Program-made: the position numbers and the translations under genes
The notes under the pieces: generated by a model
What the model saw: the letters and a program-made list of their open reading frames with translations, nothing else
The model's database searches: none
Told to the model about the DNA's origin: nothing
Shown here: piece after piece, positions 8,860-43,987 of the stretch
Numbering within the stretch: the stretch's first letter is position 1
Layout: each line of letters begins with the position of its first letter
Source of the DNA: Octopus vulgaris
Taxonomy: Eukaryota
DNA length: 64,000 bases
Assembly (NCBI GenBank): GCA_951406725.2
Contig: OX597823.1
Span: forward strand, 46,314,001 to 46,378,000
Direction: 5' to 3'

Positions 8860-9114
8860 ATTTCGCTTTTGGATTTGGTTTGCAAGATTCTTTATATGAG
8901 TTCGTGTGTTGAAGCATATTCTGTTGTGTCTGGGGAGAGTCATTCTCTTTTAGTGCCTTATCATTTAACACACTCACCGGTAAAATTTCCACTTATTCCT
9001 TATTCTTATTTTCTAAAATTTTCGTTGCGTCTTGCAACCTTTTCAATAGTCAGACTAGTGAGTGTGTTAAATAATAAGGCACTAAAAGAGAATGACTCTC
9101 CCCAGACTCAACAG
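8860..9114 (-). mobile_element. Penelope-like element terminal remnant with ~57-bp inverted repeats (8921-8977 / 9058-9114)
   Basis: Inverted repeat visible directly; encloses an HHR-like motif; flanked by (TA)n. Confidence 0.6.
9013..9049 (-). ncRNA. Putative minimal hammerhead ribozyme with U3-A8 core variant
   Basis: Minus: CUA UUGAAAA G GUUGC AAGAC GCAAC GAAA AUUU UAG; stem I CUA/UAG, 5-bp stem II, palindromic AAUU stem III. Confidence 0.55.
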
Positions 9115-9169
9115 TATGTATATATATATATATATACTTTATCTAAAAGCAGCAGAAATGTAACAAAAG

Positions 9170-9207
9170 CTGTTACTCGGAGTTTCACGTTCTCGTTCGT
9201 CGGACAG
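9170..9207 (-). ncRNA. Putative minimal type I hammerhead ribozyme (copy 1 of tandem dimer)
   Basis: Minus: CUGU CCGACGA ACG AGAA CGU GAAA CUCCGAG UA/ACAG; all three stems pair; U4C core variant; GUA cleavage triplet. Confidence 0.72.
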
Positions 9208-9262
9208 TTTTGTTTTATATATATATATACTTTATCTAAAAGCAGCAGAAATGTAACAAAAG

Positions 9263-9300
9263 CTGTTACTCGGAGTTTCACGTTCTCGTTCGTCGGACAG
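9263..9300 (-). ncRNA. Putative minimal type I hammerhead ribozyme (copy 2 of tandem dimer)
   Basis: Identical to 9170-9207; 93-bp period. Confidence 0.72.
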
Positions 9301-9303
9301 TTT

Positions 9304-9354
<51 letters not shown>

Positions 9355-9948: not shown

Positions 9949-10505
9949 GCGGCGAGCTGGCAGAACCGTTAGCACGCCGGGCGAAATGCTTTGCATTATT
10001 TCGTCAGCCGCTACGTTCCGAGTTCAAATTCCGCCGAGGTCGACTTTGCCTTTCATCCTTTCGGGGTCGATTAAATAAGAACCAGTTACGCACTGGGGAT
10101 CGATGTAATCGACTTAATCCGTTTGTCTGTCCTTGTTAGTCCCTTTTATGTTTAGCCCCTTGTGGGTAATAAAGAAATAGGTATTTTGTTTGCCTTTCAT
10201 CCTTTCGGGGTCGATTAAATAAGTACCAGCTACGCACTGGGGTCGATATAATTGACTTAATCCGTTTGTCTGTCCTTGTTTATCCTCTCTGTGTTCGGCC
10301 CCTAGTGGGTAGTAAAGAAATAGGTATTTCGTCTGCCGTTACATTCTGAGTTCAAATTGCGCCGAGGTCGACTTTGCTTTTTATCCTCTCTGGGTCGATT
10401 AAATAAGTATCAGTTACGCACTGGGGTCGATATAATCGACTTAATCCGTTTGTCTGTCCTTGTTTGTCTCCTCTATGGTTAGCCCCTTGTGGGCAATAAA
10501 GAAAT
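9949..10505 (+). mobile_element. SINE family A multimer: one head plus three tandem bodies
   Basis: Tail ...aaagaaat recurs at ~10180, ~10320 and ~10505; internal junctions read aaagaaataggtattt. Confidence 0.9.
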
Positions 10506-17266: not shown

Positions 17267-17301
17267 GTTTCCGACGAAAAGCTCCGCTCGAAACGTTAAA
17301 C
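17267..17301 (+). ncRNA. Putative minimal hammerhead ribozyme (stem II closing pair mismatched)
   Basis: GUUU CCGACGA A AAGC UCC GCUC GAAA CG UU/AAAC; palindromic ACGU stem III; about 100 bp upstream of (TA)n. Confidence 0.6.
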
Positions 17302-17399
17302 CCTCCTTCTTTCCTTCTTTCCTGAGCGTGCAATAATACTATATTTGTTCCACGTTCTCGCGTTGTTGTGTTTTTTTGTGTTTTCTTGTTTGGATTAAC

Positions 17400-24157: not shown

Positions 24158-25438
24158 TTGGGTTGGTAACTAAGTCCCCGCCCTTTTTTTAAAATTTTTG
24201 GAATTTATTGCGTTTTTAAATTTTGGAATATATTATTTTTCGAGAATTCTATTTTTGAATCATTTTAGAATTTTTTTTTCTAGTTACTTTTAGTTAACTT
24301 TTGTTTATTATTACATCATTAAAATGGAATGTCAAGTTAAGAAAAACAAGCATTTTCGACACCTCCTTTTTGCTTTTAATCAAGGTTCTAAGGCCGCAAA
24401 AAACTGCCTGCGACATTTGTGCTGTGTATGGAGAGGGTGTCATAGATGAAAGAACCGCTTGTGATGGGTATACGAAGTTCAAAAATAGAAATTTTGACAT
24501 TAAAGACGCGCCTCATTCTGGCCGTCCAGTTGAGTTCGATGAAGAGCGATTAAACCAAATTTTGCACGAAAATTCTCGTCATACGACAAGGGAACTGGCA
24601 GAGAAAATGGAATGCTCCCACACTGTTATAGAGAAGCATCTTCATTCGATGGGTAAGGTTCAGAAGTATAGAGCATGGGTTCTTCATGCTTTATGTGACA
24701 ACAACAAAAATTAACGAGCTACAATCTCCGCTGGTTTGCTTGCTGGTCACCGCTCAACTCACGGACACAAGCACCGATTTCTTTACCGAATCGTTACCGG
24801 CTACGAAAATGGTGCCTGTACATCAATATGAAGCAGCGTAAGGAATGGCTTAGCCGAGAAACAAGCGACACCGCGCGTGAAACAAGACCTTCATCCGCGT
24901 AAAACGATGTTGCGCGTATGGTGGGACTGGGAAGGGATTATCCATTATGAATTACTTGAACAGAACCAAACGGTCAATGTGGAACTCTATGTTCAACAGA
25001 TGGAACAACTCAACACGGCTATTCAAGAGAATAGACCTAATCGTCAGTATGGAGTTCTTCAGCTGCACGACAACGCCCCACCCGCCCTCATATCGCCAAT
25101 ATGACCAAGGAAGCCATTCAAACGCATGGCTGGGAACTGCTGCCGCACCCGCCGTACTCTCCTGATTTGGCACCAACGGATTTCCATCTCTTTCAATCTC
25201 TTTCAAATGCTATGCACGGAGTTTCGTTCAATATTGATTCAGAATTCAGAGCTTGGTTGGATCAAGTTTTCGAGTTGAAATCGGGTGATTTCTATCAACG
25301 AGGTATTGAAAATCTTGTTCAACGTTGGGAAGAAGTTGTGAACAACAAGGGTGAATACATTATTGTAGTTATTTTTTTATTAAACCTTTAAAAAAATTAA
25401 AATGTTAAAAAATGGCAGTAACTTAGTTGCCAACCCAA
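24158..25438 (+). mobile_element. Full-length mariner transposon (1281 bp) with TIRs and TA target duplication
   Basis: Left TA|TTGGGTTGGTAACTAAGT..GCC and right GGC..ACTTAGTTGCCAACCCAA|TA; size typical of mariner. Confidence 0.96.
24323..25391 (+). pseudogene. Mariner (DD34D-type) transposase, frameshifted with an in-frame stop
   Basis: Motifs HSGRPVEFD, WVLHAL (WVPHEL-like), TGYE (TGDE-like), VWWDWEGIIHYELL, LHDNA and HPPYSPDLAPTDFHLF split over ORFs 24301-24714, 24877-25104 and 25101-25391. Confidence 0.94.
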
Positions 25439-27042: not shown

Positions 27043-27762
<720 letters not shown>

Positions 27763-42944: not shown

Positions 42945-43987
42945 AATGAATAGAAATAAGTAAATGCGCCCTTTTTAAAGCCTAGCCAGTCTCATGGGCC
43001 CGGTTTCCCGGTTTCTCTGGCGTATGTGTTCCCCAGCTGGACGGATGGCCAGTCCATCGCAGCGTTGCTCATTTTTGCCAGCTGAGTGGACTGGAGCAAC
43101 GTGAAATGAAGTGTTTTGCTCAAGAATACAACGCGCCGCCCGGTCCAGGAATAGAAACTACAATCTTTCGATCATGATGCTGATACCCTAACCAATAAGT
43201 TACGCGCCTCCACCTAGTAATAAATGTGCCCTTTTAAAGCCTAGCCAGGCTGATGGGACCGGTTCCCGGTTTCTATGGCGTATGTGTTCCCCAGCTGGGC
43301 GGGAAGCCAGTCCATCGCAGCGTTGCTCATTTTTGCCAGCTGAGTGGACTGGAGCAACGTGAAATGAAGTGTTTTGCTCAAGAATACAACGCGCCGCCCG
43401 GTCCAGGAATAGAAACTACAATCTTTCGATCATGATGCTGATACCCTAACCAATAAGTTACGCGCCTCCACCTAGTAATAAATGTGCCCTTTTAAAGCCT
43501 AGCCAGGCTGATGGGACCGGTTCCCGGTTTCTATGGCGTATGTGTTCCCCAGCTGGGCGGATGGCCAGTCCATCGCAGCGTTGCTCATTTTTGCCAGCTG
43601 AGTGGACTGGAGCAACGTGAAATGAAGTGTTTTGCTCAAGAATACAACGCGCCGCCCGGTCCAGGAATAGAAACTACAATCTTTCGATCATGATGCTGAT
43701 ACCCTAACCAATAAGTTACGCGCCTCCACCTAGTAATAAATGTGCCCTTTTAAAGCCTAGCCAGGCTCATGGGACCGGTTTCCCGGTTTCTGTGGCGTAT
43801 GTGTTCCCCAGCTGGGCGGGAAGCCAGTCCATCGCAGCGTTGCTCATTTTTGCCAGCTGAGTGGACTGGAGCAACGTGAAATGAAGTGTTTTGCGCAAGA
43901 ACACAACGCGTCGCCCGGTGTAGGAATCGAAACCACAATCTTACGATCATGATGCTGACACCCTAACCACTAAACCACGCGCTCCAC
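42945..43987 (-). mobile_element. Tandem tetramer of a tRNA/CORE-like SINE (258-bp period) flanked by a single 14-bp TSD
   Basis: Units start at ~42961, 43221, 43478 and 43737; AGGAAGCCAAGATA at 42931-42944 and 43988-44001; minus strand has a tRNA-like head and ctgcgatggactggc. Confidence 0.93.

What the first reader, a model, noticed from the sequence alone, without database searches (positions are those of the whole stretch)
9137..9320. Exact 93-bp tandem dimer of a hammerhead unit
Seen: two identical units, each with CUGU CCGACGA ACG AGAA CGU GAAA CUCCGAG UA ACAG on the minus strand, joined by a short (TA)n. Stem III has a 1-nt loop, which is unfavourable in a monomer but could form between the two copies. 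Inference: a transcript could fold as a double hammerhead and release a ~93-nt monomer or circle, as tandem type I HHR repeats (non-LTR retrozymes) do.
Basis: partly seen in the sequence, partly recalled or inferred. Interest (0 to 1): 0.7.

Follow-up and report, generated by a model that had tools for sequence, protein, structure and literature searches.

The report
Doubled Penelope retrotransposon tail with hammerhead
The two identical 93-base units are the cut-off tail ends of a very common jumping gene, each with a predicted self-cutting RNA motif that carries a core change reported to weaken cutting; they were likely doubled on the spot through their flanking TA repeats, so this looks like an ordinary leftover rather than a family of circular RNAs.

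Summary
Observation confirmed: a perfect 93-bp doublet (107 matching bases) of a minimal type I hammerhead on the minus strand, set in (TA)n. Each unit is the last ~80 bp of a Hydra-clade Penelope-like retroelement (PLE). The motif has at least 8,243 copies in this 2.8-Gb genome. Longer copies lead upstream through a ~1-kb 3' UTR into an ORF with a telomerase-like RT fold, a C-terminal GIY-YIG fold and the Hydra diagnostic motifs. Copies end at two positions, about 37 and 108 nt past the predicted cut, as PLE tails do. Close head-to-tail pairs occur at only 15 loci (plus one 43-bp array of truncated units); linkers differ and no multimer of whole units was found, so this is not an amplified retrozyme family. 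The double-hammerhead fold is accessible in an isolated dimer (0.4 kcal/mol above the best fold) but not with flanks (p about 1e-4). The core has U4C, shared by the whole subfamily, and the predicted circle folds no better than shuffles. Most likely a local duplication through the TA runs; an assembly duplication could not be excluded. This scan noted similar PLE-end dimers in other genomes.

The parts
9309..9352 (.). (TA)22 run on the 5' side of the doublet (minus-strand sense); microsatellite target of the insertion
9230..9309 (-). Unit 1: last ~80 bp of a Hydra-clade PLE (pLTR with hammerhead, short end form)
   Evidence: aligns to the ends of ORF-bearing copies L105 and L121
9255..9307 (-). 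Hammerhead 1: stem I 5' arm 9307-9297, core CCGACGA 9296-9290 (U4C), stem II 9289-9280, GAAA 9279-9276, palindromic stem III 9275-9268, predicted cut after 9267, stem I 3' arm 9266-9255
   Evidence: cleavage predicted, not tested
9216..9229 (.). (TA)7 linker; the 14-nt TA homology shared with both flanks, likely crossover or slippage point
   Evidence: role inferred
9137..9216 (-). Unit 2: identical copy of unit 1
   Evidence: 0 differences
9162..9214 (-). Hammerhead 2: core 9203-9197, stem II 9196-9187, stem III 9182-9175, predicted cut after 9174
9174..9266 (-). Predicted 93-nt cut-to-cut product, if both sites cleaved (33% GC; circular fold -4.7 kcal/mol, z=+0.38)
   Evidence: prediction only
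9119..9136 (.). (TA)9 run at the element's 3' end (target site into which reverse transcription was likely primed)
   Evidence: role inferred from PMC11167929 and PMC8557442

Best explanation
Each unit is the hammerhead-bearing 3' tip of a Hydra-clade Penelope-like retrotransposon, inserted in a TA microsatellite and cut short at its 5' side, and the pair likely arose when that single insert was later duplicated through its flanking TA runs, leaving a doublet that is predicted to cleave weakly or not at all. Steps: (1) shown, the unit is the end of a PLE with RT and GIY-YIG domains; (2) inferred from PMC11167929, the element's protein nicked AT-rich DNA and began copying its RNA at the nearer of two internal start sites, about 37 nt past the hammerhead cut, and stopped at the stem I 5' arm, a frequent breakpoint in this family; (3) inferred, slippage or unequal exchange between the left and right TA runs copied unit plus 14 nt of TA; (4) predicted, an RNA through the doublet could fold as a double hammerhead only as a minor state, and U4C would slow it further.
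For: Family: 2,420 exact 18-mers with this core and 8,243 with the degenerate core, controls 0. Link to a PLE: of 30 loci found with an upstream 401-bp query, 24 show the same hammerhead downstream on the same strand; L105 has a 307-aa EN-region frame ending 953 bp before the same CCGACGA hammerhead; the young sister subfamily has a 727-residue stop-to-stop frame, a ~1-kb UTR and the same end with canonical CUGAUGA in partial tandem. Its model matches TERT best by Foldseek (E 5e-9), and its C-terminal domain matches I-TevI (Z 9.2, rmsd 2.3, 89 aligned), T4 EndoII and UvrC GIY-YIG domains. Two end positions: of 32 copies from the first 30 genome hits, 14 end 35-41 nt and 13 end 103-118 nt past the cut. 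Rarity of pairs: 60 pattern matches for periods 79-204 reduce to 15 loci plus one array. Of the 15, 4 have identical element parts joined by TA (periods 93, 100, 106, 142) and L195 repeats an odd 5' junction in both units and has since gained 4 differences. The window's combination of three variants is in 0 of 66 indel-free other copies, nearest 2 differences, and no other 100% hit is among the 40 best of 1,402 candidates. In 9 Xenopus retrozyme dimers only 1 cleaved in vitro (bioRxiv 10.64898/2026.07.22.740005).
Against: Each of the three variants recurs singly (9, 7 and 4 of 66 copies), so they may come from the template RNA and need not date the doubling. PLE machinery itself makes head-to-tail neighbours in TA tracts (L133; mixed-subfamily pairs such as L139, L192, L200). 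The best predicted fold of the isolated dimer does carry the inter-unit stems. U4C subfamilies reached thousands of copies, so U4C did not stop them spreading. The junction is not confirmed in reads. The 66 copies are 66 of 81 examined (15 with indels dropped), and 49 of the 81 were chosen for closeness to the window copy.
Confidence: 0.6

Rival explanations
1. Same PLE end, but doubled at insertion: the element's protein copied the same RNA twice, re-priming in the TA tract next to the first copy, as PLEs do when they build partial tandems.
For: Partial tandems and TA-linked re-insertions are present in this family (L121, L122, L193, L133). PMC8557442 (passages) describes tandem and inverted insertion as typical. 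9 of 47 close copies equal the subfamily majority, so some insertions are young and two copies from one event could still be identical.
Against: Both units share the same unusual 5' junction and all three variants. If each had independently gained 2-3 changes since insertion, the chance of zero differences would be 0.002-0.02 (Poisson, assumes that age). In the first 100 genome rows, close neighbours are inverted (13 pairs within 100 bp, counted by eye) and none is a direct pair within 204 bp.
Confidence: 0.2
2. Assembly artefact: one unit in the animal, doubled in the assembly by a false overlap between the two TA runs.
For: Zero differences between units; the overlap is pure TA; no listed contig bridges the junction.
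Against: A diverged doublet of the same build exists (L195, 4 differences), so such doublings do occur in DNA. A 93-bp duplication is short relative to long reads (general knowledge; the assembly method is not known here).
Confidence: 0.1
3. A nascent, working non-LTR retrozyme: read-through transcription gives a dimer that folds as a double hammerhead, releases a 93-nt RNA, and is circularised and re-inserted by the PLE protein.
For: The double fold is within 0.4 kcal/mol of the best fold in 191 nt. The stem III centre varies C/A/U (50/10/6 of 66), as expected for an unpaired central position. An active-looking PLE partner with many intact frames is in the genome. A preprint proposes that retrozymes arise from PLE ends by local tandem amplification, with consensus lengths from 51 bp.
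Against: No second locus with this unit and junction and no multimers of whole units. The fold is disfavoured with flanks (p about 1e-4). U4C core. The circle is not highly self-paired. The unit is shorter than the 170-400 nt of characterised retrozymes (PMC7229834). Minimal PLE hammerheads cleaved poorly even as dimers (PMC4209133).
Confidence: 0.08

Closest known systems
Hydra clade of C-terminal EN+ Penelope-like elements (Craig et al. 2021, PMC8557442; section 11 read whole, other passages by search)
   Same: [quoted passage not shown]
   Different: Unit length here is about 3.36 kb hammerhead to hammerhead (paper: generally <3 kb); the extra tail is about 70 nt (paper: 30-40 bp for PLEs); this subfamily's core is U4C, not canonical. 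The window holds only the last 80 bp, twice.
[quoted passage not shown]
   Same: Type I, short palindromic helix III suited to a dimer, mostly single genomic copies from truncated PLEs, some close opposite-strand pairs.
   Different: Helix II is short (3 bp, 2 bp in the young subfamily), without the usual G10.1-C11.1 pair; helix I is long (11 bp with one bulge); core U4C (the read parts mention a U3-A8 variant, not U4C).
Animal non-LTR retrozymes (Cervera and de la Pena 2020, PMC7229834, part 2 of 6 and passages; Li et al. preprint 10.64898/2026.07.22.740005, parts 1-3 of 5)
   Same: Head-to-tail units each with a type I hammerhead, low GC, PLE-related. It would fit the preprint's layout rule of two consecutive units if its motif descriptor accepted U4C (descriptor not seen).
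   Different: One isolated dimer, not an amplified family; 93 nt against 170-400 nt; minimal rather than canonical hammerhead; predicted circle poorly paired; no RNA evidence.
Anolis Poseidon PLE (PAc) mechanism (Frangieh et al. 2024, PMC11167929; parts 1-2 of 4 read)
   Same: Two internal reverse-transcription start sites that give short and long ends; AT-rich targets; hammerhead cleavage not needed for insertion in vitro and protein-assisted.
   Different: Different clade; the gap between the two ends is about 70 nt here; nothing was tested biochemically here.

Membership tests
Type I hammerhead ribozyme | Three helices in type I order around core boxes, with a GAAA box and a UH cleavage site | tested here: met
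   Read from the sequence; 88% of cells paired in a 12-copy alignment, but no compensatory change and no excess over shuffles
Type I hammerhead ribozyme | Canonical core CUGANGA | tested here: not met
   CCGACGA (U4C) in both units; canonical CUGAUGA in the young sister subfamily. U4C is a known natural, weaker variant (PMC3088659, passage)
Type I hammerhead ribozyme | Self-cleavage | not testable with these tools
   Needs in vitro transcription
Penelope-like element, pLTR end | Contiguous with an ORF encoding telomerase-like RT and C-terminal GIY-YIG endonuclease | tested here: met
   For the family, not this copy. No ORF remnant in the window or the 10 kb to its left by tblastn
Penelope-like element, pLTR end | 5' truncation, partial tandems, inverted 5' copies, optional tail | tested here: met
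Hydra clade PLE | RWK, DKT, CxCX5C linker, CxxC and CxH around the conserved E and N | tested here: met
   P0001: R53-W54-K55, D129-K130-T131, C578-C580-C586, C683/C686, E689, N702, C711/H713; the C-terminal ones are invariant in 106 aligned sequences; features from PMC8557442 section 11
Hydra clade PLE | Insertion into (TA)n | tested here: met
Hydra clade PLE | Placement inside the clade in an RT phylogeny | not tested
   No reference Hydra sequences were fetched
Non-LTR retrozyme | Tandem units each with a type I hammerhead | tested here: met
   Two units, with the U4C caveat
Non-LTR retrozyme | Multi-copy family of the tandem unit, dimers to multimers | tested here: not met
   15 pair loci, all different, no multimer of whole units for periods 79-204; exact-match patterns, so lower bounds
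Non-LTR retrozyme | Monomer 170-400 nt folding into a highly self-paired circle | tested here: not met
   93 nt, 47% paired, z=+0.38 against 300 shuffles; the preprint lists consensus lengths down to 51 bp
Non-LTR retrozyme | [quoted passage not shown] | not testable with these tools
   Only contig-level runs were offered; contigs cannot show ends or circles

The most novel reading that the evidence does not exclude
The doublet is a snapshot of retrozyme birth: a TA-mediated duplication of a PLE tip has made the shortest spacing at which this dimer-dependent hammerhead can fold, releasing a 93-nt RNA. Beyond that, U4C cores have spread to thousands of copies in two unrelated repeat families of this genome (about 45 of the first 100 rows of 8,243, and 74 of the first 100 rows of 16,993), which would mean either that U4C is rescued by the dimer or by the PLE protein in vivo, or that these elements transpose without cleavage; the canonical and U4C subfamilies form a ready natural pair for testing what PLE hammerheads are for.
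Probability: 0.1. Interest if true: 0.55.

Novelty: new member of a known kind. Interest (0 to 1): 0.2.

Why it matters
The locus itself is an ordinary retroelement leftover and matters little. Two things around it are useful. First, it shows one route from a PLE end to a retrozyme-like tandem (local doubling through TA runs), which a recent preprint proposes but does not trace at single loci. Second, the function of hammerheads in PLEs is an open question (PMC8557442; PMC11167929). This family has a young canonical-core subfamily with intact ORFs and older U4C subfamilies with thousands of copies, so cleavage rate and need for protein can be compared directly. Five targeted literature searches listed no paper on octopus PLE hammerheads or on U4C in PLEs; supplements and Repbase were not checked and may hold them.

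Tried and rejected
Rfam: no family at gathering score in the window and no hammerhead among 20 weak matches near the locus; minimal hammerheads need not match these models. Pfam gave no hit for the parent ORFs and none in the RT-EN-like homologues beyond a GIY-YIG hit in one 1,086-aa protein; PDB sequence searches were empty; Foldseek on the C-terminal domain gave nothing at E<=0.001; the folds were assigned. Covariation: none in 12 copies, uninformative for young neutral copies. Sequencing runs: no RNA holder listed, which is no evidence on expression. Contigs of four runs (one of undeclared kind) cover the unique right flank but break at the TA runs and repeats, so the junction and the presence of the insert in other individuals stay open. 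Host-gene context: 27 of 84 window ORFs scanned gave only a mariner-type HTH and one weak hit, so no transcribing gene was identified. The original U4C paper (PMC147498) is not held; I rely on its citation in PMC3088659. Direct repeats with period under 79 were not searched systematically. A search of this scan's notes by sequence found nothing, nor did U4C words.

Full report
1. Observation. The doublet is there as described. TRF reports period 93 at 100% over 9123-9322, and the exact match runs 107 bases. Three TA runs bound the units: 18 nt (9119-9136), 14 nt (9216-9229) and 44 nt (9309-9352). On the minus strand each unit has a type I hammerhead layout: stem I (CUGU/ACAG, extended by 7 pairs past a bulge), core CCGACGA, a 3-bp stem II, GAAA, a palindromic stem III with a single central base, and a GUA triplet; predicted cuts follow 9267 and 9174. 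The core differs from canonical CUGANGA at position 4 (U4C). Rfam does not recognise the motif.

2. The unit is a dispersed repeat. The window lies on C10 of a 2.8-Gb genome; earlier notes of this scan call it octopus-like, which I did not test. An 18-mer over stem I and core has 2,420 exact matches; allowing either pyrimidine at core positions 4 and 7 gives 8,243; reversed controls give 0. In the first 100 rows I counted 54 CUGAUGA, 24 CCGACGA, 21 CCGAUGA and 1 CUGACGA. U4C is therefore a subfamily trait, not damage at this locus.

3. The unit is the tip of a Penelope-like element. Some copies share about 590 bp upstream of the hammerhead (L054, L066). A search with that region gave 30 loci, 24 of which carry the hammerhead downstream on the same strand, and several extend into coding sequence. 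L105 has a 307-aa frame ending 953 bp before a CCGACGA hammerhead. That protein finds a young subfamily at 79% identity with many 727-residue stop-to-stop frames. At L121 the layout is truncated ORF, 1-kb UTR, hammerhead, tail, full ORF, UTR, hammerhead, tail, (TA)n, with a canonical core and the same flanking stems as the window unit. The model of this protein (pLDDT 90.5) matches telomerase RT best by Foldseek (E 5.4e-9); VIA-align ranks RTs of several kinds at Z 11-15. The C-terminal domain alone (pLDDT 88) matches I-TevI (Z 9.2, rmsd 2.3, 89 aligned), T4 EndoII (7.1) and UvrC (6.2). The sequence has RWK, DKT, CxCX5C, CxxC and CxH, the features given for the Hydra clade, which also inserts in (TA)n (PMC8557442 section 11). 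No RT tree was built.

4. Ends. Of 32 copies from the first 30 genome hits, 14 end 35-41 nt and 13 end 103-118 nt past the predicted cut, 5 elsewhere. The window units are the short form (37 nt). Two fixed ends with a tail between them match the two internal reverse-transcription starts shown for the anole PLE (PMC11167929); applying this here is inference. On the 5' side, a crude pattern classification of the same 32 copies gave 19 preceded by an inverted copy, 11 by UTR or other sequence and 2 by a TA run. Breakpoints cluster at the stem I 5' arm, which explains why a solo unit is one hammerhead long.

5. Head-to-tail pairs are rare. Patterns for periods 79-109 and 110-204 gave 25 and 35 matches. 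44 of the 60 fall in one 43-bp array on C25; the other 16 are 15 loci. Four loci have identical element parts joined by TA (window 93, L140 100, L137 106, L194 142) and come from three core types. L195 repeats an odd 5' junction in both units and differs at 4 sites. Six pair clearly different copies, mostly of different subfamilies (L139, L192, L196, L197, L200, L201), and the other four are partial-tandem or complex inverted structures. No array of whole units was found. These are exact-match counts and so lower bounds. By contrast, 13 inverted pairs occur in the first 100 rows.

6. Age and origin of the doubling. The window unit differs from the subfamily majority at 3 of 78 positions; that combination is in 0 of 66 indel-free copies (of 81 examined, 49 picked for closeness), and the nearest differ at 2. 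No other perfect copy is among the 40 best of 1,402 candidates. Unselected copies differ from the majority at a median of 6 positions (19 copies), but 9 of 47 close copies equal it. Identity of both units, including their unusual junction, favours duplication after insertion through the 14-nt TA homology. Each variant also occurs singly elsewhere, so double copying at insertion remains possible; L133 shows re-insertion into the TA tract behind an existing copy. An assembly duplication is not excluded: contigs from four public runs break at the repeats.

7. Could it cleave? In 191 nt the best predicted fold has the inter-unit stems I and III. The exact double hammerhead is -28.4 against -28.8 kcal/mol, p=2.4%; a monomer fold has p=0.27%. 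The fold is no more stable than shuffles (z=-0.09). With 100 or 250 nt of flank the double fold is 4.4 kcal/mol above the best, p about 1e-4, because the UA tracts pair. These are secondary-structure estimates without tertiary contacts or protein. U4C 'considerably decreases activity in vitro' yet supported viroid infectivity (PMC3088659, passage). Minimal PLE hammerheads showed low activity even as dimers (PMC4209133), 1 of 9 Xenopus dimers cleaved (preprint), and the anole PLE hammerhead needed its protein and was dispensable for insertion in vitro. The predicted 93-nt circle is 47% paired, z=+0.38. No promoter or host gene was identified.

8. Verdict. It works like the raw material of a retrozyme: a dimer-dependent PLE hammerhead placed in tandem. 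It fails two membership tests for non-LTR retrozymes (amplified tandem family; well-paired 170-400-nt circle), and expression could not be tested. It is best filed as a locally doubled 3' tip of a Hydra-clade PLE. Earlier notes of this scan reached similar readings for other dimers in other genomes; they are unchecked and came after my reading was recorded. Interest 0.2. The more interesting by-product is the spread of U4C cores: a second, unrelated hammerhead-like family has 16,993 matches, 74 of the first 100 rows with U4C; I did not establish which element carries it. Papers: PMC4209133 parts 1-2 of 4; PMC11167929 parts 1-2 of 4; PMC7229834 part 2 of 6 plus passages; PMC8557442 section 11 plus passages; PMC3088659 passages; the bioRxiv preprint parts 1-3 of 5. 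No supplements were read; those of PMC8557442 and PMC4209133 list hammerhead sequences and may already include this family or U4C.

Noticed in passing
G000 genome-wide; window 17268-17310 (+); L131:7699: A second, unrelated minimal hammerhead-like family: 16,993 pattern matches; first 100 rows 71 CCGACGA, 21 CUGACGA, 5 CUGAUGA, 3 CCGAUGA. One copy lies in the window. U4C is thus common in two families.
   Followed up: partly
G000:C25:20860927-20862047 (L141-L161): A 43-bp satellite of about 27 truncated hammerhead units (core, stem II and part of stem III; the 3' stem I arm only in the last unit), grown inside an inverted PLE end pair.
   Followed up: partly
window 8919-9117: Fold-back element with near-perfect arms of about 55 bp directly beside the doublet; very high summed contig depth, so a very abundant repeat.
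   Followed up: no
window 27379-27602: Another decayed copy of the same PLE end: long form on the + strand, preceded by a damaged inverted short form, in TA runs.
   Followed up: partly
L121:7555-7566 and many solo copies: 5' breakpoints cluster at the stem I 5' arm. In the young subfamily this point follows a pyrimidine-rich stretch ending in AG, like a 3' splice site; PMC4209133 reports an intron ending at helix I in Drosophila Penelope. The older subfamily lacks the AG.
   Followed up: no
G000 genome-wide: Young Hydra-type PLE subfamily with many near-identical copies and intact 727-residue frames, often as inverted or tandem pairs; probably recently active.
   Followed up: partly
window 24298-24711 (+): Fragment with a Mos1/mariner transposase HTH domain (PF17906, E 2.7e-5).
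   Followed up: no
window 42961-43987 and 10045-10505: 258-bp x4 tandem (95%) and a 143-bp tandem of what look like short interspersed repeats.
   Followed up: no
L131:6489 (+): A third hammerhead-like motif with canonical core and a longer stem II near a PLE copy.
   Followed up: no
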